From a virus, in IMG/VR virus record IMGVR_UViG_3300032820_000001, positions 1-64,000 of that record: DNA of 64,000 nt; one strand, written 5' to 3'. This document shows, one piece after another, positions 884 through 44,159 of this stretch. The stretch's first letter is position 1, and the number at the start of each line of letters is the position of its first letter. Position numbers and translations under genes: made by a program. The notes under the pieces are model-generated. The model had not been told where the DNA came from, did not search any database, and worked only from the letters and a program-made list of their open reading frames with translations.

Positions 884-1102
884 TTAATTGAAATTGGGAT
901 GCCTTATTTCCCAAGTTCCCATTACTTGTGTCCTTCCGCTAATCCAAACGTCGTTTTGCCAGTGAACAATGACCTCTTCTTTTTCAAGAAGCTCAACAAC
1001 AATTCCAATCCCGGCTTGGATCTCAAAGTCAGGTTGGCCGTTGTCAAGTTCCACCATGTCGCCGATGGAAAATTTTTTATAGTGGTCAACGGTTTGGTGC
1101 AT
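884..1102 (-). CDS. Small GDLV-family (KOW/SH3-like) protein
   Basis: FSIGDMVEL...GIGIVVE...VIVHWQND. Confidence 0.65.
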   Translation of the reverse strand: MHQTVDHYKKFSIGDMVELDNGQPDFEIQAGIGIVVELLEKEEVIVHWQNDVWISGRTQVMGTWEIRHPNFN

Positions 1103-1200
1103 ACATATAATTACAACGCGGGGGCAAGACCGGAATTTTTTTTATCAACGCATCGATGCATTAAGCCATCGATTATTTCTTCGGAATTTTTTTATGCTAT

Positions 1201-1776
1201 TTAAAGACCTAGAACGGTGATTTCCCCAAACACGGGTGTATCATCTTCCAGAACTTTCTTTACTTCAATCATCACAGCGGCATATGGCTGTGCGCCAAAA
1301 GTCTCCGCAGAACGGTAGGCCCACTTGTCTCGGTACTCATCAAGAAAGACGGGCAAGTGATAATCGCACCAGTAGAACATATCCTCTTCATCTTGGAATA
1401 CGCAAATTGCATGGGCGCTTGTATCGCCATTATCTCTTTCCATGGAGTAAAAACAAAACCATGCTCGTTCTGCTAATTTATTTTTTAGCAAAGCAACACA
1501 CCAGTAGATCGCATGATCATCACAATCCCCAAAAGGTGCCCTATCCTCTATATTCTTGGCTAACCTGCTTGGGTGTGCAAGATAGTCTAGCTTGCCATTT
1601 AAGGGGTCTTTCTTATATCGCTTGCCCCAACCCATGTCGTTGGCAATTTCAACAGAATTTCGGTAGTACCTCACGCGCTTAGAAGGGATTTTTGTGAACC
1701 TCATGGTGATTGTATACCACAACACGCTAAGGAAAACAAAGTACCGGCAGTAAAGGCGGGTGAGGCCAAACCTCAT
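1201..1776 (-). CDS. Transglutaminase-like Cys protease-fold protein
   Basis: GDCDDHA...HAICV...WCDY suggests a Cys-His-Asp triad. Start moved to ATG 1776 to avoid overlap with the upstream gene (ORF track 1201..1860). Confidence 0.5.
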   Translation of the reverse strand: MRFGLTRLYCRYFVFLSVLWYTITMRFTKIPSKRVRYYRNSVEIANDMGWGKRYKKDPLNGKLDYLAHPSRLAKNIEDRAPFGDCDDHAIYWCVALLKNKLAERAWFCFYSMERDNGDTSAHAICVFQDEEDMFYWCDYHLPVFLDEYRDKWAYRSAETFGAQPYAAVMIEVKKVLEDDTPVFGEITVLGL

Positions 1777-1780
1777 GAGT

Positions 1781-1987
1781 TTAATTTGTTGGCTTGATAA
1801 CTTCAACTTCATCGCAGATCTTTTCAACAGCATTAACAGAGTTGTTATAAACACTGCCATCGCAATACGTCTTCACCTGCCACTCGTTATGAGAGAAGAA
1901 TGGATCAGATACAACGATGCCGAGCTTCCGGTCATCAGAATATCCGTAGGAGATGATCTCTCCTTTTTGAAATTTAATATTAGACAT
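1781..1987 (-). CDS. Small GDLV-family variant
   Basis: FQKGEIISY...KLGIVVSD...WQVKTYCDG. Confidence 0.55.
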   Translation of the reverse strand: MSNIKFQKGEIISYGYSDDRKLGIVVSDPFFSHNEWQVKTYCDGSVYNNSVNAVEKICDEVEVIKPTN

Positions 1988-2405: not shown

Positions 2406-2606
2406 TTATTTAAGTCTCACTAAGTAGTAATACAAAGTATCAAACTCCTGAACGGAGCCATCGGAAGTTAAAACTTTTACAAATATCTCATATGGACAAC
2501 ACCCCATGTATATTCCAGTGGCAACGATGCGCTCCTTATAATGTGCATGCACATTAATCAGATCACCGTAGGCAAAATTTTCTAAGTCTTCGCGCTCATC
2601 ATACAA
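2406..2606 (-). CDS. Small GDLV-family protein
   Basis: AYGDLINV...TGIYMG...VKVLTSDG. Confidence 0.6.
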   Translation of the reverse strand: MYDEREDLENFAYGDLINVHAHYKERIVATGIYMGCCPYEIFVKVLTSDGSVQEFDTLYYYLVRLK

Positions 2607-2633: not shown

Positions 2634-2909
2634 CTATACCTTTAGCTTCATAACGAACGAGTCGTGGATCAATTTCTTTTCTCCCTCGATATATATCCAG
2701 AAATATGTTTCTTCACTTGCAACACCATCGTAGTCTCTAGTACGCGCAGCGTCTTCTTTATCGAGCTCGCCGCAATATATGCCAATTCTATCGTGAAATT
2801 GAAATTTGGTGACGGGCATCATTGGCATCTTTGTTAGATACTGCATATATGCTTCGTCCCATATGCGAATTAGGTCGCCAATTTCGAATTCGTCATCAAT
2901 CTTCGGCAT
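2634..2909 (-). CDS. Small GDLV-family protein
   Basis: FEIGDLIRI...IGIYCG...WIYIEG. Confidence 0.6.
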   Translation of the reverse strand: MPKIDDEFEIGDLIRIWDEAYMQYLTKMPMMPVTKFQFHDRIGIYCGELDKEDAARTRDYDGVASEETYFWIYIEGEKKLIHDSFVMKLKV

Positions 2910-3045: not shown

Positions 3046-3046
3046 T

Positions 3047-3385
3047 TTAATATCCAAACGAGCTTCCACACCCGCAGTGTCGTTTAGCTGCTGGGTTTAT
3101 AAACTTAAAGCCTGACGACATTAGGTTGCTACCATAATCGAGCGTTGTGCCCTCAAGAACGGTTGCGCTGTGGCCATCGATAACGATTATTAGGCCATCG
3201 ATCTCAACCGCCCAATCTTCGTCATAAGCGTCGGTGTCGAAGTCCAATTTATATTGAAGTCCTGAGCAGCCTCCACCTTGCAATGCTATTCGTAGATAAG
3301 ATTTGTCGTCTTCAATTGCTTCCTTTGCTTTTTCTACAGCAATGTCAGTTATTATTAGTGGAAAGTCTTCTACCGATACATTCAT
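3047..3385 (-). CDS. iscA: Fe-S cluster insertion protein, IscA/ErpA (HesB) family
   Basis: GGGCSGLQY...DGHS...GTTLDY...F.F.NP.AKRHCGCGSSF. Confidence 0.93.
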   Translation of the reverse strand: MNVSVEDFPLIITDIAVEKAKEAIEDDKSYLRIALQGGGCSGLQYKLDFDTDAYDEDWAVEIDGLIIVIDGHSATVLEGTTLDYGSNLMSSGFKFINPAAKRHCGCGSSFGY

Positions 3386-3765
3386 TGGCTCTTTTTGTTC
3401 CTGTAATTTTCAATTGCCTGCTTAATTGCATCTTCGGCCAAGACCGAGCAATGAATTTTAACTGGTGGAAGCGACAATTCTTCTGCCACATCACCGTTTG
3501 AGATTTTTTCTGCTTCTTCTAGGTTCTTTCCCTTCACCCATTCCGTAACCAAGGAGGATGAAGCAATTGCAGAGCCGCAACCAAACGTCTTGAACTTGGC
3601 ATCTTCGATGATGCCATCGTCATTGACCTTAATTTGCAGCTTCATTACGTCACCACACGCCGGTGCGCCAACAAGCGCAGTGCCAACTGATGGATCTTCC
3701 TTATCTAGCGACCCCACGTTCCTTGGATTTTCGAAATGATCGATTACTTTTTTACTATATGCCAT
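3382..3765 (-). CDS. iscU: Fe-S cluster scaffold IscU
   Basis: MAYSKKVIDHFENPRNVG...APACGDVM...FKTFGCGSAIASSS...LPPVKIHCSVLAEDAI. Confidence 0.96.
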   Translation of the reverse strand: MAYSKKVIDHFENPRNVGSLDKEDPSVGTALVGAPACGDVMKLQIKVNDDGIIEDAKFKTFGCGSAIASSSLVTEWVKGKNLEEAEKISNGDVAEELSLPPVKIHCSVLAEDAIKQAIENYRNKKSQ

Positions 3766-4844: not shown

Positions 4845-5015
4845 TCATTTTATTTTCTCAAGCCAATTAAAATATATCCACGGACTAACAATTTTCCACC
4901 TTGCCCAATAGACCTTTGCGCCTTTGGGTTTCTCCTTCATCTTTATCACGATACCTATACCACGTTCTTTGAGGTTTAAGTCCCCATCAAATTTTACCAA
5001 GTCACCTACTTTCAT
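4845..5015 (-). CDS. Small GDLV-family protein (56 aa, not in ORF track)
   Basis: MKVGDLVKFDGDLNLKERGIGIVIKMKEKPKGAKVYWARWKIVSPWIYFNWLEKIK*. Confidence 0.7.
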   Translation of the reverse strand: MKVGDLVKFDGDLNLKERGIGIVIKMKEKPKGAKVYWARWKIVSPWIYFNWLEKIK

Positions 5016-5212
5016 GATACCACCTCAAGCCTTTTCTTTCTGAACGCCACTGTATCACCATCGCTCCACAAAACATGAACGTACCATGATTCTGACAAAG
5101 GTCTATATATTTGCGCCATGCTTTCCCCGGAAGGCACAACTATGCCAACCATCCGACCGCTGCCCTTTGACAGATCGGCTCCTTCAAATTTTACCAAGTC
5201 ACCGATTTCCAT
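5012..5212 (-). CDS. Small GDLV-family protein
   Basis: MEIGDLVKF...VGIVV...VHVLWSDG...LEVVS. Confidence 0.72.
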   Translation of the reverse strand: MEIGDLVKFEGADLSKGSGRMVGIVVPSGESMAQIYRPLSESWYVHVLWSDGDTVAFRKKRLEVVS

Positions 5213-5381
5213 TTACCACCTCAAGTTTGCTTCTCCCACACCAAGTTTTCTCGCCATCGTTCCACAACACAAGAACGGTTCCACACCACCCCTGCTGTAA
5301 GTGAGCTGGGCGCGTTAGCACAATGCCAACCATTTCTATTTCTTGATGCCCTGAGAATTTTACTAAATCACCGTGTTTCAC
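5199..5381 (-). CDS. Small GDLV-family protein
   Basis: MKHGDLVKF...VGIVL...VLVLWNDG...LEVVN. Confidence 0.72.
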   Translation of the reverse strand: MKHGDLVKFSGHQEIEMVGIVLTRPAHLQQGWCGTVLVLWNDGEKTWCGRSKLEVVNGNR

Positions 5382-5571
5382 TCATCACCTTCAAGTCATA
5401 ATCCCATACGTTGCTGCCGACAGTGCCATCTGTCCACCACACCTTGAATACATCGTTGTGCATTGCTCGTGGTTCGTCTACCTTCTCTATAATGATGCCC
5501 ATCATATTATACTTGTTCATGTACTGTGCGCTTTGGCTCAAGCAAACTAAATCACCTTTTTTCATAGTCAC
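5368..5571 (-). CDS. Small GDLV-family protein
   Basis: MKKGDLVCL...MGIII...FKVWWTDG...LKVMS. Confidence 0.72.
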   Translation of the reverse strand: MTMKKGDLVCLSQSAQYMNKYNMMGIIIEKVDEPRAMHNDVFKVWWTDGTVGSNVWDYDLKVMSETR

Positions 5572-5707
5572 ACCAATCTCCTTTAAAGACCCAACGCTTG
5601 TTGCCTGTCCTGCTGCTCACACACAGTGCGTGATGGAAGTAGGTATCGATTACAAGCCACAACGTATTGTCCATTCTTCTTTCAATTAAATCACCGATTT
5701 TCATCAT
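5552..5707 (-). CDS. Small GDLV-family protein (51 aa, not in ORF track)
   Basis: MMKIGDLIERRMDNTLWLVIDTYFHHALCVSSRTGNKRWVFKGDWCDYEKR*. Confidence 0.65.
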   Translation of the reverse strand: MMKIGDLIERRMDNTLWLVIDTYFHHALCVSSRTGNKRWVFKGDWCDYEKR

Positions 5708-5869: not shown

Positions 5870-5896
5870 AATCTAACCTTTTTTTTCTATGGATTT

Positions 5897-6016
5897 TTTT
5901 GGGGGTGTATCGCGTGAATGTACTTAGTTTGAAAACCACCCCCCTAGATAGTACCTACTTTCCGGCCCGGTAGGGGGGAGGGGGGGGTGCCCCCCTGCCT
6001 ACCCCTGGCAAGCCCT
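5897..6016. other. G/C-run non-coding element (G-quadruplex-capable; candidate genome-end/packaging or origin site)
   Basis: GGTAGGGGGGAGGGGGGGGTGCCCCCCTGCCTACCCC at ~5969-6005 plus TTTTTTTGGGGG and CCACCCCCC runs; no ORF. Confidence 0.45.
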
Positions 6017-9194: not shown

Positions 9195-9470
9195 TTAGCT
9201 GATTAGCTCCATATAGTCATGGCTAACCCACTCCAACTTTCTCTTTTCTCCCAATACCATCACATGATAGGGAGCATAATTTACGTCATTCCAGTAGCGT
9301 GTGCCTGAGTCATCATCATAAACAGTATCCGCTAACTCATACGCTTCATGCCATGGTATCGTGCGACCTACTACTATCCCATACTCTTGTGTGTGTGAAT
9401 AATCTTTAGCATACTTGTCCTGAATCCTTACTAAGTCTCCTACCTCATATACTACTCTTTCTTCTTTCAT
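9195..9470 (-). CDS. Small GDLV-family protein
   Basis: YEVGDLVRIQ...YGIVVG...YHVMVLG. Confidence 0.68.
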   Translation of the reverse strand: MKEERVVYEVGDLVRIQDKYAKDYSHTQEYGIVVGRTIPWHEAYELADTVYDDDSGTRYWNDVNYAPYHVMVLGEKRKLEWVSHDYMELIS

Positions 9471-11976: not shown

Positions 11977-12288
11977 TTAGGATACAATTCGGCACTGATA
12001 TTCTACATACGACTTGCCATACCAGTCAGCCCCCAAGTGAGTGGATAATTTGTAGGGGGTTTTCTTACGCCTGTCGCCCACCTCAAGAACAAGGCCGTAG
12101 CCATCCATCGGCCACTCATGGTCAATCACCAAGTCACCCACTTTGGGGATGGTACGGTGGGATGCAAGCTCGGCCTGCAATTTCTCAAGCTGTTGAAGAT
12201 CACCTGTCGTGACCCCAACGCGGGTGTGAAACTGAGCCATCCTAATCGTGCGCGTCAAGTCATAGTATTCATTGTGCGTCAGTGCCAT
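11977..12288 (-). CDS. Helical N-terminus fused to a GDLV domain
   Basis: Start set at MALTH (12288, GGAG RBS); IPKVGDLVID...YGLVLEV. Confidence 0.6.
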   Translation of the reverse strand: MALTHNEYYDLTRTIRMAQFHTRVGVTTGDLQQLEKLQAELASHRTIPKVGDLVIDHEWPMDGYGLVLEVGDRRKKTPYKLSTHLGADWYGKSYVEYQCRIVS

Positions 12289-13194: not shown

Positions 13195-13223
13195 ATTTTA
13201 ACACACATCTTGACTTTTGTCAA
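13195..13223 (-). promoter_or_regulatory. Sigma70-type promoter
   Basis: TTGACA-17-TAAAAT; the -35 lies in a CTTGAC-TTTT-GTCAAG inverted repeat. Confidence 0.65.
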
Positions 13224-13443
13224 GCACTTCTTCTACTTCCCACTCATAGACAACACTAGATTCGTTTAAACTGTTTTGCCACATCACCTCAACGCCCATG
13301 GCACCATCACCATACACACTCACATCTTTCCGCAATACAATACCAATCCAAGTCTCTTCTCCACACTCATAGAAATTTGATCCATTCACCACAGACTCCT
13401 CAAACAATTCGGCCTTAAACCTTACCAAGTCTCCTACTTTCAT
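13198..13443 (-). CDS. Small GDLV-family protein (array 2)
   Basis: MKVGDLVRF...IGIVL...VEVMWQN. Confidence 0.75.
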   Translation of the reverse strand: MKVGDLVRFKAELFEESVVNGSNFYECGEETWIGIVLRKDVSVYGDGAMGVEVMWQNSLNESSVVYEWEVEEVLDKSQDVC

Positions 13444-13676
13444 GACACCACCTGATACTGGTCGTTACTCGGCGCGAGAATATAATGAAGATAGCCTTTT
13501 TTAAGACACCTCGCAACTGCATCAACGCGCTGTCGGTCATCCTTAAAGTTTTGTGGGAATGGAAGGTGATCGTCGGTTGGGTGAACCTGTGTTACAAGGA
13601 ACACTTCTCCAAAGCCCCATTCGCCTAGCTTAGTTCTCTTAACCAAGTCTCCTACTTTAAAATTCATCTTAATCAC
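13440..13676 (-). CDS. Small GDLV-family protein (array 2)
   Basis: FKVGDLVKR...VFLVTQV...YQVVS. Confidence 0.72.
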   Translation of the reverse strand: MIKMNFKVGDLVKRTKLGEWGFGEVFLVTQVHPTDDHLPFPQNFKDDRQRVDAVARCLKKGYLHYILAPSNDQYQVVS

Positions 13677-13866
13677 TTATCCTTTCCAGTGCTGTTCTCG
13701 AATGAAAGGTTTTGCACTGGGGAGGGTTATAGGGGAGCCACACCACCTGAACAAAGGACGCTGCTTCGGGATCGTCGGCCACAACTATACCAATCTCTTC
13801 TCGGTAGTTGGGCAACGGGCTCTCTCGCCAATGGTAATGCTTTACCAGATCTCCGATCTTAACCAT
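13669..13866 (-). CDS. Small GDLV-family protein (array 2)
   Basis: VKIGDLVKH...IGIVV...VQVVW...LERIS. Confidence 0.75.
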   Translation of the reverse strand: MVKIGDLVKHYHWRESPLPNYREEIGIVVADDPEAASFVQVVWLPYNPPQCKTFHSRTALERISD

Positions 13867-14062
13867 TTACTTTCTCCAAGCGGCGCAGTGGATGCCACAG
13901 GGGGGGACTTAATGGCGCATCGCTCCACTTAACACACACCCCCATAACCCCAACTCCATATCCATCTTTGCTTTCTATTATCTTTATCACCACACCCAAC
14001 GCCTGTTCATGAGCGCGAACATAGGTCTGGGTGTCCCTTACTAAGTCTCCAACTTTAATCAT
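13859..14062 (-). CDS. Small GDLV-family protein (array 2)
   Basis: IKVGDLVRD...LGVVI...VCVKWSD...LEKVN. Confidence 0.75.
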   Translation of the reverse strand: MIKVGDLVRDTQTYVRAHEQALGVVIKIIESKDGYGVGVMGVCVKWSDAPLSPPLWHPLRRLEKVNG

Positions 14063-14063
14063 A

Positions 14064-14441
14064 TTATTTCGTCCGAATGGAAGGAAAGCTGTCTAGCAAA
14101 TCGGTTATATCTGGGAGGTTTCCACACTCAAGGGGGCTCCGCTCTTTTTCTATCTCTGAGGTGAGGTGCTTCCGGTGGGAAGCCGCCTTCAAGTCGCTGC
14201 GATAGAAGGAGCCGTAACCTGCATTAAACTTACCATAGTGGTATTGGCCTCTTCGCGCTCTGGGGCCGTGATCATTGATCCACTTAACTCTATAAGTGGG
14301 GCCGAGCCCATAAGGACTGCTCTTGTTAATTTCCATTACAAGTCCAATAATATTTCCCTTGCGCCAATCTTCATAGTAGCGCCAAGCAATTTGAAGGTTG
14401 ACCCCCTTCGCAGATAATGTTACTAAATCTCCAACGTTCAT
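14064..14441 (-). CDS. GDLV-family protein with C-terminal extension (array 2)
   Basis: MNVGDLVTL...IGLVME...YRVKWIND. Confidence 0.72.
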   Translation of the reverse strand: MNVGDLVTLSAKGVNLQIAWRYYEDWRKGNIIGLVMEINKSSPYGLGPTYRVKWINDHGPRARRGQYHYGKFNAGYGSFYRSDLKAASHRKHLTSEIEKERSPLECGNLPDITDLLDSFPSIRTK

Positions 14442-14659
14442 TTTACCACCTCCAGGTGCTTCCACATTGTTTTATCCAAGAGCCGGGGCTCTGAAGATCC
14501 GATGGGGAGTATTTTTAAATTGGTGACGGTATAAGTGTTCATGCCATCGCCTTCATCATCAAATAGGATCTCCTCCTCACCCAAATAAAGTGCTACGGTA
14601 TCATTCAAAGGGTAGCCCCCATAAACATAATCAATCTTCACTAAATCTCCTACTTTCAT
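14438..14659 (-). CDS. Small GDLV-family protein (array 2)
   Basis: MKVGDLVKI...VALYLG...LEVVK. Confidence 0.72.
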   Translation of the reverse strand: MKVGDLVKIDYVYGGYPLNDTVALYLGEEEILFDDEGDGMNTYTVTNLKILPIGSSEPRLLDKTMWKHLEVVK

Positions 14660-14823
14660 GCCACCACCTCGTACCACTTTTGGGCTACTCGTTCTTCAAT
14701 CCACAATCTGTTTCCGGTCGTGCAATTCAAAATAAAAATATCTCCCTCATGAATATCCACTACTAGCCATGGATCGCTCCTTCCTCCAAATACTTTCTGA
14801 ATTACTAAATCGCCCAATTTCAT
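14656..14823 (-). CDS. Small GDLV-family protein (array 2)
   Basis: MKLGDLVIQ...WLVVD...TGNRLW...YEVVA; similar to 5552..5707. Confidence 0.7.
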   Translation of the reverse strand: MKLGDLVIQKVFGGRSDPWLVVDIHEGDIFILNCTTGNRLWIEERVAQKWYEVVA

Positions 14824-15008
14824 GACAATTTCTCCAGGGAAGATCGAGCTAACCGATAAGTGTAGCCTCCCAAGAGGACTACAGGATCTCCAGGGCAAGA
14901 GCGACCACCATGGTCAAAGCGAATGAGCAAACCCACCGTTTCTTTATCCAAAGTGGTGGCACCTTTTGTCACTACTAAATCTCCAATCTTAATCACTTTA
15001 TCTTCCAT
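14820..15008 (-). CDS. Small GDLV-family protein (array 2)
   Basis: IKIGDLVVT...VGLLI...LEKLS. Confidence 0.7.
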   Translation of the reverse strand: MEDKVIKIGDLVVTKGATTLDKETVGLLIRFDHGGRSCPGDPVVLLGGYTYRLARSSLEKLS

Positions 15009-15555: not shown

Positions 15556-15699
15556 TTACTCTCTTTCATACCCGTCAAACCAGCCATCACCGGAGGTGCT
15601 AGGATCGTTGCAGTGTGCTTGTGCTTGCTCAAGGGTTAAGCCCCAATTAATAACATGGTTATCACCTTTAAATCTAAATCTAATAATCTTATAAGTCAT
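15556..15699 (-). CDS. Small conserved-looking phage protein (GLTLEQAQAHC.DP.T...WFDGY)
   Basis: Motif recalled from other phage early proteins; start MTYKII. Confidence 0.55.
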   Translation of the reverse strand: MTYKIIRFRFKGDNHVINWGLTLEQAQAHCNDPSTSGDGWFDGYERE

Positions 15700-15922
15700 C
15701 TTCTGGTTCTCCTTCTTCTGTGTCATCCCAATCGGTTGTGTAGATGCGCTCTTCACGCTCATCCTCCAGTTCTTGGATCACATCATTGTTAAAGTATTCT
15801 CTAACCGCTTCATAGACGCCAGTAACGTGCGTAACCAAAAAGTCACTCCCCTCCACATGGCAGATCTCTCGCAATTTGGCATCATACATTTCATCGGTTA
15901 TCCAATCATATTCATGCGTCAT
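15689..15922 (-). CDS. Small acidic hypothetical protein
   Basis: Start set at MTHEY. Confidence 0.55.
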   Translation of the reverse strand: MTHEYDWITDEMYDAKLREICHVEGSDFLVTHVTGVYEAVREYFNNDVIQELEDEREERIYTTDWDDTEEGEPEDDL

Positions 15923-16100
15923 TGGGAACGCTCCTCTCAATATAGCCAGCCTCCAGTAGAGCCTGTGCGTGTCGCTGATACGATCCTTGCAGACTATAGA
16001 TTATGCGGGTGTCTAGGAGGGTTTGAAAGAAGTCTATGACTTCCTCATCATCCATATCCCCTTGCTCGTAGGCCATAATTTGATTTACAACATCTTTCAT
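15912..16100 (-). CDS. Small phage protein (IMAYE.G...FQ.L.DT..YSLQGSY)
   Basis: Motif recalled from phage early proteins. Confidence 0.6.
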   Translation of the reverse strand: MKDVVNQIMAYEQGDMDDEEVIDFFQTLLDTRIIYSLQGSYQRHAQALLEAGYIERSVPNDA

Positions 16101-16441
16101 TATATCACCTCATGCGTGAATGCTTGGTTGGTGGGTTTGATAGGCTGTTGCCCATCTGCGTAGGCCCGAAGGTTAATCTCACTGGTATAAACCACCTCAA
16201 GGCGATCATACTTATCATTACCGATGCGTTCATGCACTAGCCCCTTAAAATAATTGACGTGCTGGGAGGTGGTGTTGCTATACTTCTTATCAGTGATGAT
16301 AAGATGACTGAAAAGATAATCATGCACCATCACTGGAGTATCATACGAAAAGAATATACTAATGGTTTCGTTCTTGTCCTGCGTTCGCTTGGGTTGGTAA
16401 TGTAAGACGGTTTTGTTGTTACCTAAATTTTCTAATCTCAT
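16100..16441 (-). CDS. Phage protein (FSYDTPV...YS.TTS.H.N)
   Basis: Motif recalled from phage early proteins. Confidence 0.6.
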   Translation of the reverse strand: MRLENLGNNKTVLHYQPKRTQDKNETISIFFSYDTPVMVHDYLFSHLIITDKKYSNTTSQHVNYFKGLVHERIGNDKYDRLEVVYTSEINLRAYADGQQPIKPTNQAFTHEVI

Positions 16442-16707
16442 TATTTCTTCTCCTGTGTGTGGGTGTCAATGGGTTGGAGGTTATCAATCAAGGATTCCAA
16501 TCCTTCTGGGGTTTCATCTTCTTCTAACAGATCATCATGCATGCCATGCTCTTGGATTTCTCCTATTAATTCTTCGGTGGTATAAGTTTTGTAGTCCTCC
16601 ATTAAGTAGGTTATGGCTATCTCCACCAGCGTATCCAAATCCATACCATCCACCAATCGCGTGGCGTATTCTTCTGCGCTTTCTTTGAGGCTAAATTTCA
16701 ATTTCAT
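16441..16707 (-). CDS. Acidic hypothetical protein
   Basis: 88 aa; weak similarity in pattern to 8416..8754. Confidence 0.55.
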   Translation of the reverse strand: MKLKFSLKESAEEYATRLVDGMDLDTLVEIAITYLMEDYKTYTTEELIGEIQEHGMHDDLLEEDETPEGLESLIDNLQPIDTHTQEKK

Positions 16708-16718
16708 CTTGTTGCTTC

Positions 16719-16868
16719 CTAACCTAAAATAGTGTCTTGGTATGCTCTTGCTTCTTCAATCGTATCGAAAGTTTCATACACCCCTTTGGGCAAATCTATA
16801 TCCTCATAATGATCTTCATCTTCATCGATCTCTTCAATGTACGTCCATATTTTATAATGTTTTGCCAT
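16719..16868 (-). CDS. 49-aa acidic protein (not in ORF track)
   Basis: MAKHYKIWTYIEEIDEDEDHYEDIDLPKGVYETFDTIEEARAYQDTILG*; AGGAG RBS. Confidence 0.55.
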   Translation of the reverse strand: MAKHYKIWTYIEEIDEDEDHYEDIDLPKGVYETFDTIEEARAYQDTILG

Positions 16869-16879
16869 GGTATCTCCTT

Positions 16880-17107
16880 CTAATCGTTGTAACAGGCTTG
16901 GTCAAAGGGGCCTTGGTAAAGCACCTCAGTGCGCTGTACCACATCATCACGAGCCACCCTAGCAGTCTCTAAGACGCTTTCGCGTTGGGTGTCATCCAAC
17001 TCCCCTAGCTGAGAGAGGAAGGACAGCAGAGCCATGTCTGGGCAGTGTAGGCGGGATGCCATGAGGATTTTGCTAGTGAGTTGAGCGATTGTTTGGTCTT
17101 GGGTCAT
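16880..17107 (-). CDS. Hypothetical protein
   Basis: 75 aa ORF with AGGAG RBS. Confidence 0.55.
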   Translation of the reverse strand: MTQDQTIAQLTSKILMASRLHCPDMALLSFLSQLGELDDTQRESVLETARVARDDVVQRTEVLYQGPFDQACYND

Positions 17108-17115
17108 ATTATCTC

Positions 17116-17319
17116 CTATGATAATTTAGTGAGTGAGTCTGAGAGAAACCATTCATTCATATTAATGGTAGTGCCATTGTTGAGCCAGAACACCTGAACG
17201 TGAGTGTGAGGGCTTTTATTAACAACCTTCTTTACAATCCCTTGAAGAATGGGATACCCAAACACTTCTTGGTTGTGCGAAAGACCGTCGTGCGTAACTA
17301 AATCGCCAATTGCTAACAT
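17116..17319 (-). CDS. Small GDLV-family protein
   Basis: MLAIGDLVTH...QGIVKKV...VQVFWLNNG. Confidence 0.7.
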   Translation of the reverse strand: MLAIGDLVTHDGLSHNQEVFGYPILQGIVKKVVNKSPHTHVQVFWLNNGTTINMNEWFLSDSLTKLS

Positions 17320-17320
17320 G

Positions 17321-17485
17321 CTATTTCTTCTCCTGATCATTTTTAGTTTTAATATATTCAATGGCCTTGACTTCAAGGGCATCAATATCTTCATCTTCAT
17401 CATACATTAAATCAAATGCGCCTATCCAACCTAAATCTTCTGCGAGTTCAAGGATCTCGCCTACTCCCATGTTATCAAAATCCAT
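17321..17485 (-). CDS. Small acidic hypothetical protein
   Basis: Start set at MDFDNM. Confidence 0.5.
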   Translation of the reverse strand: MDFDNMGVGEILELAEDLGWIGAFDLMYDEDEDIDALEVKAIEYIKTKNDQEKK

Positions 17486-17486
17486 T

Positions 17487-17825
17487 TTAAATTCCTTCAA
17501 TGGTAACGTTAATTTCTTTTCTAAATCCCCAAGGGTTGTCCCACCAAGCACCTTCATCACCGCTAGACTCGTCCGATGGGTATTCGGGGCATGCTTCGAT
17601 GACAATATAATCCTCAATATCTTGGGGTGCCAAATCAGAATAGAGTTTGTCTATCTCTTTGTCATAATTCCGATACCACTTAATATCCTCAAAGATAAAT
17701 GCAATCCCTTCTGGTTCTGGTGCTGCCAATCGTGCATCATGCTGCAGAAAGTGGCGGCTTTCATCTGAGAGTTTCTTATAAATTTCACTCTTCATACAAA
17801 CAACAATATCGCTTCGGGTTCCCAT
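17487..17825 (-). CDS. Hypothetical protein
   Basis: Start set at MGTRSD, behind GGAG. Confidence 0.55.
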   Translation of the reverse strand: MGTRSDIVVCMKSEIYKKLSDESRHFLQHDARLAAPEPEGIAFIFEDIKWYRNYDKEIDKLYSDLAPQDIEDYIVIEACPEYPSDESSGDEGAWWDNPWGFRKEINVTIEGI

Positions 17826-17826
17826 A

Positions 17827-18223: not shown

Positions 18224-18224
18224 T

Positions 18225-19647: not shown

Positions 19648-19670
19648 ACCATACTGGCCAAGAAGATCAA
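19643..19670 (-). promoter_or_regulatory. Sigma70-type promoter heading the early block
   Basis: TTGATC-16-TATGAT with TGG before -10. Confidence 0.45.
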
Positions 19671-23007: not shown

Positions 23008-23229
23008 TCACTTACTTTCTATCAGATTTTCTTCTTTCACATCAAATAAGGTGTGAGTGCCATCACGCCAACGTACCAAATATACGTTATCCGATGCTGG
23101 GGAATCGACGTGGTGGATGATGCTGGCGTACTCTGGTTTCTTTTCGCCAATATCAACCTTAATTGTGGTGCCGACAGATAATTTCTTCATGCTGAATCCT
23201 GGTCGCTTACGCGATCTTCTTTGTCTCAT
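23008..23229 (-). CDS. GDLV-like small protein (variant; start uncertain)
   Basis: LSVGTTIKV...YASII...YLVRWRDG. Confidence 0.55.
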   Translation of the reverse strand: MRQRRSRKRPGFSMKKLSVGTTIKVDIGEKKPEYASIIHHVDSPASDNVYLVRWRDGTHTLFDVKEENLIESK

Positions 23230-25235: not shown

Positions 25236-25430
25236 CTATTTAATATCAGCGGGGTTGCGCTTTTTGGCCCACTCTTGAGCGTTGGGGCTTAATTCCCAGA
25301 GGGTTTTCTTGGCCACTGTGTACATCTCTCGATGATATAATTTAGAGTCCTCCGATCTGGATGTCTCCAGACTCTTTAGGTGGTGAGCTATCATTTTATT
25401 AAAAAGTTCACATTCTTCTTTGGTGGTCAT
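25236..25430 (-). CDS. Hypothetical protein
   Basis: 64 aa ORF. Confidence 0.5.
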   Translation of the reverse strand: MTTKEECELFNKMIAHHLKSLETSRSEDSKLYHREMYTVAKKTLWELSPNAQEWAKKRNPADIK

Positions 25431-25642
25431 TATGCAATTTTTTCCTTATACCAATAATGATCGAACAACATAGGTGTGCCATTATAGACAACAAGATCCT
25501 GCTTCTCCATGAACGCCTGGGGATTTTCTCTTACTCCCACAAATATCCCATAGCACCAATCGATGCTATCAGGATCGACGGCCCAGGGCTCGTTCATGCC
25601 GCACATGCGAACCAGATCTCCTATTTCCAAAAAACCGTTCAC
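25430..25642 (-). CDS. Small GDLV-family protein
   Basis: LEIGDLVRM...YGIFVG. Confidence 0.65.
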   Translation of the reverse strand: MNGFLEIGDLVRMCGMNEPWAVDPDSIDWCYGIFVGVRENPQAFMEKQDLVVYNGTPMLFDHYWYKEKIA

Positions 25643-25807: not shown

Positions 25808-25836
25808 ATAATATCACACATAATTGTGCGTGTCAA
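25808..25836 (-). promoter_or_regulatory. Sigma70-type promoter
   Basis: TTGACA-17-TATTAT; shares GCTTGACACGCA with the 56290-56320 promoter. Confidence 0.7.
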
Positions 25837-26444
25837 GCCTTATTTTTAAAAGCCTTGACGTGTCTCTCTTGGCAATCAACCACTGAGGTTGAGCCAAAAG
25901 GTAACAAGCGGTATACCTTTGCTCCTTGAGCGTGGGTTGCAATGGTGGGAACTTTATTTTCCACCACCACACATAATTTCTTTCGCATGAACGCGAGGTT
26001 ATAGGGAAGGGTTCGGGCATCGCGTACCTGCACAATATCCCCCTTCTGATAGAGGGGTTCCCGATTATATTCTTTCCATACCTTGGTGGTAAATTTGTTC
26101 TCGCACATTGCTCTGAATTGGTTGCGCGTTGGGATATAGTCAGGGAGGGTGAGGATAAGTTGGGCTATGTCACTAAAGTAAGGGGGGTTCGCCAAATAGT
26201 AACGCGCACAGACGAGAGCCCTTTCTTTGTGCAGGCGCGGGTATTCTTCGGCCCACAATGCCACATCTCGTTTGCCCTCTGGAGAATTTAAATACTCTAT
26301 CTTCTCGAACGCCTTGACTTGTTTCTCCGATAGCTTCCCGGTTTTCTCAAACCAACTTTGAAGGGATTTCAAAAAGGGAATATCTTTAGCATCTTCTTGG
26401 TTTTCTTTGGACTCAATGAGTTGGTCTATCCTATTTTTTTCCAT
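25833..26444 (-). CDS. Hypothetical protein with C-terminal GDLV-like domain
   Basis: FLKSL..W....KLSEKQ N-domain; C-terminal YQKGDIVQVR. Confidence 0.6.
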   Translation of the reverse strand: MEKNRIDQLIESKENQEDAKDIPFLKSLQSWFEKTGKLSEKQVKAFEKIEYLNSPEGKRDVALWAEEYPRLHKERALVCARYYLANPPYFSDIAQLILTLPDYIPTRNQFRAMCENKFTTKVWKEYNREPLYQKGDIVQVRDARTLPYNLAFMRKKLCVVVENKVPTIATHAQGAKVYRLLPFGSTSVVDCQERHVKAFKNKA

Positions 26445-26697: not shown

Positions 26698-26724
26698 TAT
26701 ATGATCTTTATTAATTTTTGTCAA
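26696..26724 (-). promoter_or_regulatory. Perfect-consensus sigma70 promoter
   Basis: TTGACA-AAAATTAATAAAGATCA(17)-TATAAT. Confidence 0.75.
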
Positions 26725-26942
26725 GTGTTTTCTTCTCCCGGTAGCTTGACGAGGGAGCCAACCACCTCCCAGGTGATAAACGTGCTTTTTTCGGAGCCGG
26801 GATCTGACACCCAAAAGACCCGATAAGCAGAGCGATCCCTGCTATGGGCTTGAGGGGTGGCTTTTTCAATGATTACTCCCAGTTTTGTGTTCTTATTCCA
26901 GGGTTTACACCCAGCGACAAGTTCGCCCATCTCAAATTGCAT
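26721..26942 (-). CDS. Small GDLV-family protein
   Basis: FEMGELVA...LGVII...YRVFWVSD...LVKL. Confidence 0.65.
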   Translation of the reverse strand: MQFEMGELVAGCKPWNKNTKLGVIIEKATPQAHSRDRSAYRVFWVSDPGSEKSTFITWEVVGSLVKLPGEENT

Positions 26943-26950
26943 GATCTTTC

Positions 26951-27274
26951 CTATTCGCTTACTTCCCAATTTGCCTCGATACCACGAGGAGAAACAATCA
27001 CCAGCACGTCGCCAAGTCTTTCTTTAACTTCGGCGGAAACCTTTAAGATCGTTTGCTGGTTGCGGTTCTTCATATCTAAGAAATATTTAGTTTCCCCCAT
27101 GTCAGCTGCGCCATATACGTTAGCGATAAATTCTTCTACAATAAGATCCCAAGCACCATCGACCTGATCGGTGGCTCCCCTTGCGGCTCTCTGCTTTTCT
27201 TTGGCCACAGATGTTTTCTCATGAAGGTCAGTCTTCGTACTCATTGTCATGGTTCTCCATTCATTTATGTTCAT
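26951..27274 (-). CDS. Hypothetical protein
   Basis: 107 aa ORF. Confidence 0.55.
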   Translation of the reverse strand: MNINEWRTMTMSTKTDLHEKTSVAKEKQRAARGATDQVDGAWDLIVEEFIANVYGAADMGETKYFLDMKNRNQQTILKVSAEVKERLGDVLVIVSPRGIEANWEVSE

Positions 27275-28218: not shown

Positions 28219-28455
28219 CTACAAGTCCAAAAAGAACAGAATTGCGAAACCCGCATAGAGAGCTGCGAAAATAGCCTCCTTACTGTCCTCAAACACCACC
28301 ATTGCAATCGTTTTTAATCCACACATGGTGAACATCGCAACAGCAAAGAGGGTTTTATCTCCAGTGAAAAAAGCAAGGAGGATTGCTATAAGCGCCATCA
28401 ACTGAAGGGCATTCATTTGCTTTCTGTCTATACCTAATTTATTTTCTTTTTCCAT
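28219..28455 (-). CDS. Small membrane protein (about 3 TM segments)
   Basis: Three hydrophobic stretches. Confidence 0.6.
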   Translation of the reverse strand: MEKENKLGIDRKQMNALQLMALIAILLAFFTGDKTLFAVAMFTMCGLKTIAMVVFEDSKEAIFAALYAGFAILFFLDL

Positions 28456-28813
28456 TTTTCTTTCCTAACGAAGAGATCACTTTGACCTCGGTGGGATATA
28501 CCCATATAAAAGAATAACTCAATTTATCCATTTTGTAAAGATCAAAGTTCTCGTTTTCTTGTGCAGTTCTTGACCAGAGTACCAAAATCATTGGAGCGTC
28601 CGGTAGTGCGGTGGATATTTTCCAATACTCATCATCATCATAGAAATTTCTAATGGCACTGTCTAAGTCGGCAATATCATCCATGTCGCCCTTTGTGTCC
28701 ATAACGAGGCCAACACCAAGAATGAGGTCGCCTTCGTCGCCATCAAAACACACTAAATCTCCCACCTGAATGTCTTTCCTTTCCATACCAGTAAATAGCT
28801 CAGGGTATTTCAA
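28439..28813 (-). CDS. GDLV-family protein (larger variant)
   Basis: IQVGDLVCF...VGLVMD...ILVLWS...EVKVIS. Confidence 0.65.
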   Translation of the reverse strand: MKYPELFTGMERKDIQVGDLVCFDGDEGDLILGVGLVMDTKGDMDDIADLDSAIRNFYDDDEYWKISTALPDAPMILVLWSRTAQENENFDLYKMDKLSYSFIWVYPTEVKVISSLGKKNGKRK

Positions 28814-28835: not shown

Positions 28836-30764
28836 CTAGAAACACACATCTTCGAAAATGCCTTGCAAAATTTGAGTGTACCGAGCGCCAGAAGCTGGGT
28901 CGATACTAATAAGTCTGTCGGGATCATTCCCACACGCTGGCCCCCATGAGCTTAGATAATTGGCGGCATCAATAAAAAATATCTCCACTGAATCACCGGG
29001 TTCGCAGCCTGCTATTTGGCAGATGGAGGCTAATGGGGCGATATCAGAAGGTGTGTTGTAATTCCCCCCCATACTTTGAGGGCCTTCATCGCTGATACTA
29101 ATTACATAAGGGAAGGCATCGCTTCTCCAAGGGATGCCGATGGGGTTCACTGGGTCAACCGTCGCCAGAACCACGTCAGTCGTAGGTTCAGCCCCTCCAC
29201 CATTACACTCAAGACCTCCCAAGAGAGCTTGAAAAGATGCGGCATCTATCATCATGGTGGGTGTGAGCAGTTCGGGCATCGCATATTGATGTCGCATGGG
29301 ATGAACCACCAATCCAAAGCGATGCTCCGAATCTTGGAAGTCAGCTACATAAGCAGTGATACCCTCGTAGAGTGCTTGGATGTATGGGCACATCGAACCT
29401 GAGATGTCTATAATAAATAACATATCAACCTTGTCGTGAGCGTTTAGGTCTTCGTCTATTTCTCCGTCACAATCGTTGTCGAGCATATCACAAATTTCTT
29501 CGGTCGGCTCTATCTCACCTACACACTCGCCCCACTCGCCAACTTCACAAGTGGTGGTGCCAAGCATACATTCGCCTACCCCATGAAGGCTGGGGTTGTT
29601 GCCGCACATGGCCACAATCATATCGATGGTTCCGTCGCAATCGTTATCCCAGTTGTCACAGATCTCTGGCTCAATACCTTGGTAGATGCATGGCCCCCAG
29701 ACTCCGAACATATCGCAAACCTGAATGCCGTAGCCACAGTTCAGGAGGTTGCCGTCCGAATCGTAGATGTTCTCGCGGCAGACTTGAGTGTCGTCCATCA
29801 CGCATAAACATCCCTCATCGACGACGCCATCGCAATCATTATCGATGTAATCACATAGTTCAACTTGCGGCTCAGGGGCGTTGCAATTAACCCAGCTGCC
29901 ACCTTGACACATTTCTACACCAACGCCACAGATTGTCTCACATGGCTGGTAAATATTCTCATCGACGATACCATTACAATTGTCATCGAGGTCATTGCAG
30001 ACTTCATTCTCAGGCATCACCGCGTCAAAACATTTGATGTCCCCTCCCACACAGTAGTTCATTCCATAGGAGCAGAGGCCGCGATCATTATAGCCGCACA
30101 CTCTTTGGTGGAGGGTTTGCAGCTCCACTGGATCTTCGTCGATAAGGCCATCACAATCATTATCATAACCATCGCAGGACTCTGGCTCGTCGAGGATTTG
30201 ACCTTGGCAATTTGTCATGGCTCCATGGATGCACTCCATAATTCCCATCTTACATTGGGTGGTGGCAGAAAAAATGACATCATCCGAGCCCGTCCAACAA
30301 TCCACAGCATCTATATCATCTATCTTGCCGTCACAATTGTTATCAATGCCATCGCAAATTTCGGTATGGTCAGGATATATTTCTGGATTGGTGTCGTCAC
30401 AGTCACCAGGATTGAGGCACGAACTAAGGGAGTTCACACCATCTTCATCGGCATCCCAAGACAGGTCATTATCAATAAGACCGTCGCAATCGTCGTCCTT
30501 GTCATTACACTCTTCGAGGATTGGTTGTGTATATCCCTCGCAGATTATATTTAAGTCTTCGTCGCAAGTGGTGCGACCAAGCGAACACTCCCCCATCACA
30601 GGGTAAAATTTAAGCTCACTCTTTCCCACTCGCACAAAGCCATCACTGTCAACGGCGCAGTCTTGCGGCGGCGGGCATACTTTACTTAATTTTTCTTCGC
30701 AGCTCTCACACCCGGCGAAGGGTAAAATAACGAGTAAGAGCCCTATAAAAGCTTTTCTAGTCAT
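28836..30764 (-). CDS. Lipoprotein with 7 MopE-related Cys/Asp metal-binding repeats and C-terminal vWA domain
   Basis: Lipobox FAG|C; seven E.C(D/N)..D(N/D)(D/N)C(D/N)G.(I/V)D repeats; vWA DMLFIIDISGSM...GG.EP...ISISDE; start set at MTRKAF. Confidence 0.85.
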   Translation of the reverse strand: MTRKAFIGLLLVILPFAGCESCEEKLSKVCPPPQDCAVDSDGFVRVGKSELKFYPVMGECSLGRTTCDEDLNIICEGYTQPILEECNDKDDDCDGLIDNDLSWDADEDGVNSLSSCLNPGDCDDTNPEIYPDHTEICDGIDNNCDGKIDDIDAVDCWTGSDDVIFSATTQCKMGIMECIHGAMTNCQGQILDEPESCDGYDNDCDGLIDEDPVELQTLHQRVCGYNDRGLCSYGMNYCVGGDIKCFDAVMPENEVCNDLDDNCNGIVDENIYQPCETICGVGVEMCQGGSWVNCNAPEPQVELCDYIDNDCDGVVDEGCLCVMDDTQVCRENIYDSDGNLLNCGYGIQVCDMFGVWGPCIYQGIEPEICDNWDNDCDGTIDMIVAMCGNNPSLHGVGECMLGTTTCEVGEWGECVGEIEPTEEICDMLDNDCDGEIDEDLNAHDKVDMLFIIDISGSMCPYIQALYEGITAYVADFQDSEHRFGLVVHPMRHQYAMPELLTPTMMIDAASFQALLGGLECNGGGAEPTTDVVLATVDPVNPIGIPWRSDAFPYVISISDEGPQSMGGNYNTPSDIAPLASICQIAGCEPGDSVEIFFIDAANYLSSWGPACGNDPDRLISIDPASGARYTQILQGIFEDVCF

Positions 30765-30808
30765 ATATGTAATTATATCATAATCTGAAAGATCTTGCAA
30801 CCATTTTA

Positions 30809-43400: not shown

Positions 43401-43922
43401 TTTCTCCAACATTTCGAAGTCGATGCGAGGATAGCGATAGAAGTTTTTGGGAGTGTAAGATTCCGAAACCATCTTGAAAAGATTGTTCAGCCCCTTCTGA
43501 TTACGAACCAGCAGAATAAGATGACTACGCCGAGACAGAATATCTTTAACAGCACTTTTGCTTGCTGCTTCATCTTCGACTGTCGTTCCGGTAGCCTCTC
43601 CATCACTCTTGGCCCTCTTCTTATCTAGTTCGGCCAATTGCTTTTCTTCGCGCCACTCTGGTAAAGAGGGTACAAAATATGCTTCACACCCATAGATCGG
43701 CTTAAAATCCTTACCACTCGCCTGCATTTCCTTCGCGTGGAGTACCTGATACGCGAGGCCATTCATGTTCCCATGATCGGTGAGCGCCAATGCATCCATA
43801 CCATTTTGATAGGCTGAGTCCATGTGTTCTTGTGGATAACCAAGTGCATCGAATGGCGAACCTGCCACACTGTGGGCATGCAGCCCGACGTACTTTACTT
43901 TTGAATTTTCTCGTTCGGTCAT
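40458..43922 (-). CDS. dnaE: DNA polymerase III alpha subunit (family C)
   Basis: PHP domain (HAHS, TDHG, GCE, SDSHY); GRGSAAGSL; PDIDYD; SRHAGG; KFDILGL; YRPGP; FSGYGFNASHA; no intein seen. Confidence 0.97.
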   Translation of the reverse strand: MTERENSKVKYVGLHAHSVAGSPFDALGYPQEHMDSAYQNGMDALALTDHGNMNGLAYQVLHAKEMQASGKDFKPIYGCEAYFVPSLPEWREEKQLAELDKKRAKSDGEATGTTVEDEAASKSAVKDILSRRSHLILLVRNQKGLNNLFKMVSESYTPKNFYRYPRIDFEMLEKYGEGIIVASACMGGVFAGDYWANRGEGEDAVFAAMRKTASRFKEIFGDNFYGEVQWNAIPDQHAINKFVIKVCAEFDIQLVSTSDSHYPDKKSWKDRELYRKLGWLRKGLAEATLPDTIDETRCELYPKNGDEMLEAYRKYSQPDNWSYREKDTPLFPKGVEYDEKLILDSIERTYEIAHEKIESFFPDNTVRLPDFVVPEGMTADDALMGFTRDGLAKRGLTGKKNYEERIEQEFDVISSRGFSKYFLTMRAISDKAQEAQLVGAGRGSAAGSLIAYCLNITQIDPIKYNLQFERFLRKDTVDYPDIDYDVADPMELKDMFIKEWGDNVVVPISNWNTLQLRSLIKDISKFYNIDFAEANGVTSKMIHEATPRAKEANGIAAGVYAPTFEEVLEYSDSLKAFLNKYPQVKTHVLRIFGSTRSCSRHAGGILVGENLDHHMPLISSGGVRQTPWSEGQNVRHLEPMGFIKFDILGLASLRMIEGAIRHILIRKHDIPEPTFAQVKAYYEKHLHPDTIDFDDQKVWKNIFQKGKWAGVFQFTQDGAQKFCKDTKPTSLADLSAITAIYRPGPLSAGVAKRYAKAIKNPEEIEYGHPVIKECLEETYGFIIFQEQLALLAHKLGRDISLDEGNALRKLLTKKGTGKGAKELEKIRLKFVDGCVDKGITEQQAMELWEKMEFFSGYGFNASHAVSYATLSYQCAHLLNYYPVEWMAAFLDKEPEGRKEAAINVAKSLGFGIEKLNVNTSGRVWEISDDGHALIQPLTSIKGLGESAIEQIFNGRPFHKIEDFLFNEDMVYSKLNKKALDVLVRSQALNCLMDDRFTGLKHYWSAVAVERPRKEKDLEDNIEMYAPEGDFAIEEKIEYLASLTGVFPIHLVVDEPIQQRLKEYCVPAISDYDPDLNLVWFVPRKVTARKTKNDKTYWVIEVVDENSVLTHIKCWGVKEHRDRIQINRPYMAKLDFSEQWGFSTRSIYHNFRVLG

Positions 43923-43925
43923 AAT

Positions 43926-44159
43926 CTATCCTAGCTTCCTTAAGTGATAGTGTGCAATACTGAGGCGTTGGCCGCCTACATAAATCATAGCGGAATCCCA
44001 CAACTTATCAGCGCCTAATACAATTCCGATTTCTCGATCTGGTTGGCGTGAGTAATCCAGAGGAGTAACTATCTCCACTAAATCTCCACGCTCAAGTGTC
44101 AGCCCCGACCAGTCGGTAAGATCTTTGAGCCATTCGCTTTTGAAATGTGACAACTCCAT
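43926..44159 (-). CDS. Small GDLV-family protein
   Basis: LERGDLVEI...IGIVLG. Confidence 0.6.
   Translation of the reverse strand: MELSHFKSEWLKDLTDWSGLTLERGDLVEIVTPLDYSRQPDREIGIVLGADKLWDSAMIYVGGQRLSIAHYHLRKLG

What the first reader, a model, noticed from the sequence alone, without database searches (positions are those of the whole stretch)
884..44159. Expansion of ~30 small GDLV (KOW/SH3-like) paralogues: candidate undescribed effector system
Seen: about 30 genes of 50-125 aa share the pattern (K/E/hydrophobic)-(V/I/K)-G-D-L-V-x...G-I-V-[LIV]...often V-x-W-x-D-G...L-E-x-V, with highly variable inter-strand loops. Low coordinates: 884, 1781, 2406, 2634, 3755, 3977, 4251, 4845, 5012, 5199, 5368, 5552, 9195, 10128, 10389, 11013, 11977, 13198, 13440, 13669, 13859, 14064, 14438, 14656, 14820, 17116, 23008, 25430, 26721, 28439, 43926, plus a C-terminal domain in 25833. 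Known: the GDxV first strand is the KOW signature of NusG/L24-type SH3-like barrels, and Tudor/Sm/Hfq-like barrels bind RNA or proteins. Inference: one scaffold with diversified loops could be a phage binder library, for example anti-defence inhibitors, decoys for host SH3/KOW partners, or transcription/translation modulators. I know of no described function for such a family.
Basis: partly seen in the sequence, partly recalled or inferred. Interest (0 to 1): 0.8.

Follow-up and report, generated by a model that had tools for sequence, protein, structure and literature searches.

The report
Phage repertoire of tiny SH3-like proteins
An uncultured 191-kb marine phage spends about 5% of its genome on some 34 old, very different genes for one tiny barrel-shaped protein; most copies are inherited like ordinary genes, those in two tight clusters are gained and lost whole at the short joint between neighbouring genes, and what the proteins bind is unknown.

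Summary
Observation confirmed. The window is part of a circular 191-kb phage genome. All 32 listed genes exist, plus two outside the window. 31 of 34 are found again by a profile built without them, and two very different members fold as five-stranded SH3/KOW/Tudor-like barrels (pLDDT 88-90). No Pfam, PHROG, NCBIfam or PADLOC family matches, and the KOW glycine loop is absent. The expansion is clade-wide: 24-42 copies in six other near-complete genomes.

The 'diversifying binder library' reading is only partly supported. Paralogues are old (21% identity) and under purifying selection; loop and strand dN/dS are about equal (0.23 vs 0.19). 17 of 19 scattered copies keep syntenic orthologues in a relative, against 4 of 13 in two tandem arrays. 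In those arrays the last strand's codons form the next gene's Shine-Dalgarno site, and close relatives differ by whole genes with breakpoints inside that joint; alleles also swap loop segments.

Most likely these are distinct protein-binding host-takeover modules (host possibly Myxococcota); no target is shown. This scan found the same family in other phage genomes before. I found no paper describing it.

The parts
4845..5707 (-). Array A: five coupled family genes (5552, 5368, 5199, 5012, 4845); content and order vary between close relatives
13198..15008 (-). Array B: eight coupled family genes (14820, 14656, 14438, 14064, 13859, 13669, 13440, 13198)
4994..5029 (-). Joint 5012/4845: last-strand codons = Shine-Dalgarno, ATGA stop/start overlap, first-strand codons; 30/32 identical to joint 13440/13198
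5185..5225 (-). Joint 5199/5012; shares a 12-mer with the 5012/4845 joint, where relative L221 switches register and lacks gene 5012
13417..13453 (-). Joint 13440/13198
14420..14456 (-). Joint 14438/14064
14634..14670 (-). Joint 14656/14438; right-hand breakpoint of the 14656 indel versus L221; 35/37 identical to a joint in distant phage G024
14802..14838 (-). Joint 14820/14656; left-hand breakpoint (21-nt overlap 14804-14824) of the 14656 indel versus L221
884..1102 (-). Family gene, conserved syntenic orthologue (51-68% in relatives)
1781..1987 (-). Family gene, conserved orthologue
2406..2606 (-). Weak family member; its orthologues in relatives score as members
2634..2909 (-). Family gene, no orthologue found in G006, G003 or L221
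3755..4499 (-). Three adjacent family genes (4251, 3977, 3755), kept in order in every relative that covers them
9195..9470 (-). Family gene; orthologue in G006, G003, L233, absent from L221
10128..11282 (-). Family genes 11013, 10389, 10128, conserved orthologues
11977..12288 (-). Family domain with a short N-terminal extension
17116..17319 (-). Family gene; 79% identical orthologue in G002
23008..23229 (-). Divergent member (no GDLV, keeps the third-strand Trp); conserved orthologue upstream of the MoxR-vWA pair
25430..25642 (-). Family gene, conserved orthologue
25833..26444 (-). Helical N-terminal domain fused to a C-terminal SH3-like barrel; orthologues in 6 of 8 relatives compared
26721..26969 (-). 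Family gene, conserved orthologue
28439..28813 (-). Family gene with a long acidic loop, conserved orthologue (64-72%)
43926..44159 (-). Family gene directly upstream of DnaE, also in relatives
5870..6000 (-). Conserved G/C-run non-coding element immediately upstream of array A (context; role unknown)

Best explanation
This is an old, lineage-wide expansion of a stand-alone SH3-like small beta-barrel in a clade of about 190-kb marine tailed phages. Shown: common fold, real genes under purifying selection, and two tiers. The scattered copies are inherited as distinct orthologues. The two arrays turn over by whole-gene gain, loss, duplication and reordering. In the arrays the codons of the last beta-strand double as the Shine-Dalgarno site of the next gene, and the stop overlaps its start. 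So each joint is a roughly 35-nt near-repeat, and a crossover inside it adds or removes a complete, translatable gene. Homologous exchange between diverged alleles also swaps loop segments. Inferred, not shown: each paralogue is a single-domain binder whose own conserved loops recognise a different host (or phage) protein during takeover. It would act by adaptor, blocking or mimicry, as other SH3-like barrels do (Mfd/CarD RID, HspQ, CarS, Nip), and the arrays are the mobile part of that repertoire.
For: Family and fold: leave-one-out profile. AF2 of 13859 has pLDDT 90 and five strands, with VIA Z 8.6, rmsd 1.4 A over 56 residues to Spt5 KOW6-7. The 25833 C-domain gives Z 8.4 to the same chain.

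Clade-wide: 13 of 14 near-complete records matched. There are 24-42 copies per relative at a decoy-set threshold, and 843 distinct ORFs across fetched loci, median 68 aa, only 3 over 150 aa.

Age and selection: median paralogue identity 21%, maximum 43%. Pooled dN/dS 0.12-0.33 versus close relatives. Each orthologue group keeps its own motif.

Two tiers: 17/19 versus 4/13 retained in G006, Fisher p=0.0016.

Joint: 88 of 217 family genes directly follow another family gene and share a GGAGGTGA consensus before the start. The terminal Glu uses GAG in 48/56 versus 41% background, p=5e-12. Breakpoints for genes 14656 and 5012 versus L221 fall inside joints. L229 has a tandem duplicate of 5368 (69% nt) and a reordered array; L213, L237 and L238 carry extra members. 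Mosaic alleles of 13859, 13669 and 5368.

Protein rather than nucleic-acid partners: charges run from -11 to +8 and are mostly acidic; a conserved aromatic sits in strand 3 (W 67%) and strand 4.
Against: No target, expression or phenotype was measured. A shared small barrel carries no function: Z 7-8.6 is shared by KOW, Tudor, chromo, PsaE and R67 folds alike. Only two clean breakpoints were mapped, both in one relative, and their direction (loss or gain) is unknown. The third indel (extra gene after 14064 in L221) has no canonical joint at its left end. Joint similarity could come from shared protein and Shine-Dalgarno constraints alone and need not have been selected for shuffling. Other small genes of the region are also gained and lost.
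Confidence: 0.55

Rival explanations
1. Actively diversifying anti-defence or decoy library: loops are under arms-race selection against host immune proteins.
For: Array content turns over fast. The second loop is the most diverged region between close orthologues (66% identity) and loop segments are swapped between alleles. Nip, a proven counter-defence protein, is predicted to hold two SH3-like domains (PMC11984713).
Against: Loop dN/dS is 0.23 against 0.19 for strands, and synonymous change rises together with non-synonymous change in that loop, which points to recombination and not positive selection. Family genes diverge no faster than other small genes (median 51% vs 56% identity to G006). 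Most copies are fixed orthologues. No PADLOC match.
Confidence: 0.2
2. KOW/NusG- or MotB-like regulators that bind RNA, DNA, RNA polymerase or the ribosome to redirect host gene expression.
For: Top fold matches include Spt5/NusG KOW, Mfd/CarD RID and ribosomal proteins. The profile weakly hits uL24c, eL21 and NusG (E 0.02-0.3). The phage has sigma-70-type promoters, consistent with use of host RNA polymerase. T4 MotB has a predicted KOW domain (PMC7827196).
Against: No member has the KOW glycine-loop pattern or a PF00467 hit. Only 3 of 34 are strongly basic. Thirty or more fixed paralogues are more than one machine needs. This may hold for a few members (4845, 14064, 25833).
Confidence: 0.13
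3. Largely neutral or selfish accumulation: the self-coupling joint lets a small, easily folded gene multiply, and most copies do little.
For: The joint does permit tandem duplication and loss. Array genes are dispensable in close relatives.
Against: Purifying selection on array genes too (for example 13440 dN 0 at dS 0.18; 5368 dN 0.03 at dS 0.22). No recent near-identical paralogues in any genome (maximum 50%). No pseudogene seen among the window's copies. Orthologues persist past synonymous saturation.
Confidence: 0.07
4. Subunits of Sm/Hfq-like or R67-like homo- or hetero-oligomers, with translational coupling setting the stoichiometry.
For: Tight coupling. R67 DHFR is among the fold and feature matches (Z 8.0).
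Against: Neighbours are lost and reordered freely. No Sm/Hfq entry among the top 50 fold matches. Most copies are not in arrays.
Confidence: 0.05

Closest known systems
KOW domains of NusG/Spt5 and uL24 (Pfam PF00467), and T4 MotB N-terminal KOW (PMC7827196)
   Same: Five-stranded SH3-like barrel, GDxV first strand, Z 8.4-8.6 to Spt5 KOW6-7 and archaeal Spt5
   Different: No KOW glycine loop, no Pfam hit, stand-alone 50-125 aa genes in dozens of copies, mostly acidic
Tudor/chromo-barrel/PWWP, Mind bomb SH3 repeat and UBE2O SH3-like domains
   Same: Same fold (Z 7-8.4). Conserved aromatic in strand 3 and often strand 4. Profile hits tandem-repeat proteins with sub-threshold SH3_15/Tudor matches; Atlas nearest named cluster is SH3-C_UBE2O on 52% of members, score 0.89-0.90
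   Different: No full aromatic cage shown; no sequence-level membership; phage-encoded and stand-alone
Small stand-alone bacterial/phage SH3-like proteins (SPbeta YorP, PetP/DUF3104, NdhS, HspQ, CarS) and SH3-like domains of Nip (PMC11984713)
   Same: Single-domain barrels that act by binding a partner (from established knowledge); Z 6.7-8.2
   Different: Those are single-copy, with no significant sequence match (best DUF3104 E 0.03)
PeSL cassette shuffling in T4-type hyperplastic regions (PMC2839356)
   Same: Whole non-essential small genes gained and lost by recombination between short repeats
   Different: PeSLs are roughly 100-bp non-coding promoter plus terminator elements between unrelated genes. 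Here the repeat is about 35 nt, lies inside coding sequence, and joins paralogues of one family
Bacillus phage G expansion of about 35 zinc-ribbon genes (PMC7824862)
   Same: A large phage with about 35 copies of one small domain
   Different: Different fold, reported for one phage; here the expansion marks a whole clade

Membership tests
SH3-like small beta-barrel fold | Five antiparallel strands with a short 3-10 turn before the last strand | tested here: met
   AF2 models of 13859 and the 25833 C-domain; Z 8.4-8.6, rmsd 1.4-1.8 A. Only 2 of 34 were folded.
KOW motif (PF00467) | GDxV first strand | tested here: met
   G 100% (used as the anchor), D 90%, L 88%, V/I 97% in 217 domains
KOW motif (PF00467) | Short glycine loop after strand 1 (invariant Gly 11, then two further Gly) | tested here: not met
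   0 of 34 match the pattern; the loop is variable in length and sequence
KOW motif (PF00467) | Score against the Pfam KOW models | tested here: not met
   No member hits at E <= 0.1
KOW motif (PF00467) | Binds RNA, RNA polymerase or ribosome | not testable with these tools
   Charge argues against general nucleic-acid binding for most members
Tudor/chromo/PWWP (Royal family) | Barrel fold | tested here: met
   Z 8.2 to 6if4 Tudor, 7.8 to the MRG15 chromo domain
Tudor/chromo/PWWP (Royal family) | Aromatic cage for methylated Lys/Arg | tested here: inconclusive
   Only one strongly conserved aromatic (strand 3) and one partly conserved (strand 4); model coordinates could not be inspected
Bacterial SH3b cell-wall-binding domains | Pfam SH3b-type hit, or fusion to lysins/secreted proteins | tested here: not met
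   No hit; 840 of 843 ORFs are 150 aa or shorter, so not lysin fusions
Sm/Hfq | Sm fold and ring assembly | tested here: inconclusive
PeSL cassettes | Whole-gene indels with ends inside a repeated element | tested here: met
   Two breakpoints inside joints
PeSL cassettes | Repeat is a non-coding sigma-70 promoter plus terminator stem-loop | tested here: not met
   Joints are coding overlaps; promoter and terminator counts are at shuffle level
PeSL cassettes | Excised mini-circles | not testable with these tools
Known anti-defence proteins | Inhibits a defence system in vivo | not testable with these tools
   No library match

The most novel reading that the evidence does not exclude
The arrays are a self-assembling cassette system for single-domain binders. 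The scaffold's own first and last strands encode the recombination and translation joint, so binders for host proteins, including immune proteins, are plugged in and out and their loops are exchanged between alleles without any dedicated recombinase or promoter. That would make it a natural small-binder repertoire tuned to the host population.
Probability: 0.25. Interest if true: 0.85.

Novelty: new variant of a known kind. Interest (0 to 1): 0.55.

Why it matters
Dozens of copies of one unannotated domain is rare in phages, whose genomes usually lack large paralogue families. A profile of the family annotates about 5% of each such genome at once. It also gives a defined panel for finding new host-takeover or counter-defence targets, probably in poorly studied marine Myxococcota-like hosts. 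The dual-coding joint is a simple, testable route to gene-level modularity. The score is held down because the fold is common, no target is known and no diversifying selection was found.

Tried and rejected
Pfam, PHROGs, NCBIfam and PADLOC gave no significant family. PDB sequences gave only E >= 0.01, and cultured phages gave no tblastn match for 5368.

My first leave-one-out run overwrote its database and is void; it was redone.

An apparent 74% match of 14438 in distant phage G013 was a short N-terminal stretch, not horizontal transfer. Positive selection on loops was not found. Relatives in cellular MAGs (WOR-3, Methanosarcinales, Deltaproteobacteria SP124, Flavobacteriales) look like binned or mis-assembled phage pieces and were not taken as host proof.

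A gene 'missing' from gene calls between 5368 and 5012 is only uncalled: the spacing is identical. The N-terminus of 181219 looks similar by eye but failed profile comparison and is not counted. The G/C element folds no better than shuffles (z -0.6). Searches of IMG/VR with 5368 and 14438 found nothing.

Six paper searches found no description of the family.

Full report
Context. The window is the first 64 kb of a 191,133-bp virus record whose ends overlap by 53 nt, so it is circular as assembled. All long genes are on the minus strand. They include DnaE, RecA, GroEL, a MoxR/vWA-peptidase pair, IscU and IscA. The nearest cultured phages share only about 30% DnaE identity. Relatives come from IMG/VR, JGI, ENA and Tara assemblies; the Tara names and my reading of the others suggest a marine habitat. 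The host is unknown. A MopE-repeat lipoprotein, IscU homologues labelled Myxococcota at 82-84% and two related contigs in a Deltaproteobacteria MAG hint at Myxococcota; this is inference only.

Observation. All listed genes exist. In the first 32 kb the motif occurs in 28 minus-strand ORFs and no plus-strand ORF. Leave-one-out profiles recover 31 of 34 members above all 1266 other ORFs, and 15 still rank first without the GDLV strand. The family takes about 8.9 kb, or 4.6% of the genome (longest-ORF lengths). No library names it.

Fold. The model of 13859 has pLDDT 90 and five strands. It matches Spt5 KOW6-7 (Z 8.6, rmsd 1.4 A, 56 residues), archaeal Spt5, a Tudor domain, R67 DHFR, PsaE and chromo barrels almost equally well. 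The sequence-weak C-domain of 25833 gives the same list. The nearest predicted structures are unnamed viral proteins, many with neighbouring accessions, which suggests similar expansions in other genomes. Conserved columns are the strand cores, a Gly in strand 2, a Trp in strand 3 and the terminal L-E-x-V. The KOW glycine loop is absent. So these are SH3-like barrels that resemble KOW domains but are not members of the KOW motif family.

Range. 22 of 25 records, and 13 of 14 near-complete ones, carry matches; the three without are a distant phage (25% DnaE identity) and two records reached through IscU only. With an iterated profile thresholded on opposite-strand decoys, six near-complete relatives hold 24-42 copies in the regions fetched. 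Across all fetched loci there are 843 distinct ORFs, median 68 aa, nearly all stand-alone. A search of 1.8 billion representatives gave 263 hits, mostly 55-90-aa proteins plus some tandem-barrel proteins.

Evolution. Paralogues are old: median identity 21% in this genome and at most 50% in any genome. Against the complete relative G006 (82% DnaE identity), 17 of 19 scattered copies have orthologues in the same gene order, but only 4 of 13 array copies do (p=0.0016). The G006 best hit to 5199 is a different paralogue and was not counted. Orthologues diverge like other small genes: synonymous sites are saturated and pN is 0.31 versus 0.29. Against close relatives dN/dS is 0.12-0.33, with loops at 0.23 and strands at 0.19. 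The genes are therefore functional and individually constrained, with no sign of diversifying selection. Within one orthologue group the later strands and adjoining loop residues are invariant while the first loop comes in block-like alternatives. Alleles of 13859, 13669 and 5368 are mosaics of near-identical and diverged segments, consistent with recombination between diverged alleles.

The joint. I tested this after earlier scan notes suggested it. In both arrays the last codons of one gene carry the Shine-Dalgarno sequence of the next and the stop overlaps the start. In nine genomes 88 of 217 family genes directly follow another family gene, and these share a GGAGGTGA consensus that singletons lack. 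The Glu of the terminal motif is GAG in 48 of 56 cases against 41% background. Joints 8.4 kb apart are 30/32 identical, and one is 35/37 identical to a joint in a phage with 56% DnaE identity. Close relative L221 lacks gene 14656, with the register switching inside a 21-nt overlap at the joints, and lacks gene 5012, with the switch in a shared 12-mer. L229 has nine genes in array A, including a tandem duplicate of 5368 and a moved 5199-like gene; L213, L237 and L238 carry further members absent here; G006 and G003 have one gene each at this site. This works like PeSL shuffling (PMC2839356) but uses a coding joint and no promoter-terminator. Whether the joint was selected for shuffling or is a by-product of coupling cannot be told.

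Mechanism. Shown: fold, expansion, selection, two tiers, dual coding, and whole-gene turnover with two mapped breakpoints. Inferred: protein binding with paralogue-specific partners, from the single-domain architecture, orthologue-specific surface conservation, charges from -11 to +8 with 22 of 34 acidic, and the known behaviour of SH3-like barrels. Location among small accessory genes behind strong sigma-70-type promoters such as those at 22862 and 26724 suggests early action, but timing was not measured. Anti-defence is plausible by analogy with Nip (PMC11984713) but untested.

Novelty. Six paper searches found no account of this family. The nearest published analogue of the expansion is the roughly 35 zinc ribbons of Bacillus phage G (PMC7824862). 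The scan's own notes report the same family in several other phages; these are not independent evidence, but they show this genome is one instance of a recurring feature. Verdict: a real, unpublished phage protein family of a known fold, with a coding-joint variant of cassette shuffling; function unproven. Interest 0.55.

Noticed in passing
window 5870-6000 (minus strand): Non-coding G-run/C-run element followed by a conserved tract, present at the same place in 7 relatives; similar runs occur once in distant G013 and G020. No excess RNA folding. Candidate genome terminus, packaging site or origin.
   Followed up: partly
window 3047-3765: IscA and IscU genes. IscU is present here and in L229 but absent from G006, L221 and L233, where IscA remains in place. 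A weak Bfd-like gene lies at 24823.
   Followed up: partly
window 28836-30800: Lipoprotein-like gene with five MopE-type metal-binding repeats, conserved in distant relatives; a hint of a Myxococcota-like host.
   Followed up: partly
window 20501-22786: MoxR AAA+ plus metallopeptidase-vWA pair, the best conserved marker of this clade's accessory region; such a pair is described for jumbo phages in PMC7824862.
   Followed up: partly
window 13195-13223: Strong extended sigma-70-like promoter (11/12) overlapping the 3' end of gene 13198; similar promoters overlap the stops of 26721 and 25833.
   Followed up: no
window 15600-19900 versus G002: Patches of 88-96% nucleotide identity inside a genome otherwise 70-80% identical, indicating recent recombination in the early region.
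   Followed up: no
L221:14070-20213, L233:12310-16177, L229:7954-11603: Directly downstream of the 884 orthologue, relatives carry a 1900-2200-aa protein, or a 506-aa and an HNH gene; L229 also has a tubulin-like gene just upstream of it. This is a variable insertion site at the window's left edge.
   Followed up: no
L240 (CP070664.1:585894-606886): About 10 kb of genes of this phage clade (MoxR 67%) sit inside a WOR-3 MAG chromosome next to an N gap, among unrelated bacterial genes; probably a mis-join.
   Followed up: partly
genome 181219-181980 (L246:720-1481, minus): 253-aa protein whose N-terminus looks like a family barrel by eye but fails profile comparison; lies next to member 180996.
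   Followed up: partly
window 52641-52716: The only tRNA gene in the genome, tRNA-Gly(TCC).
   Followed up: no
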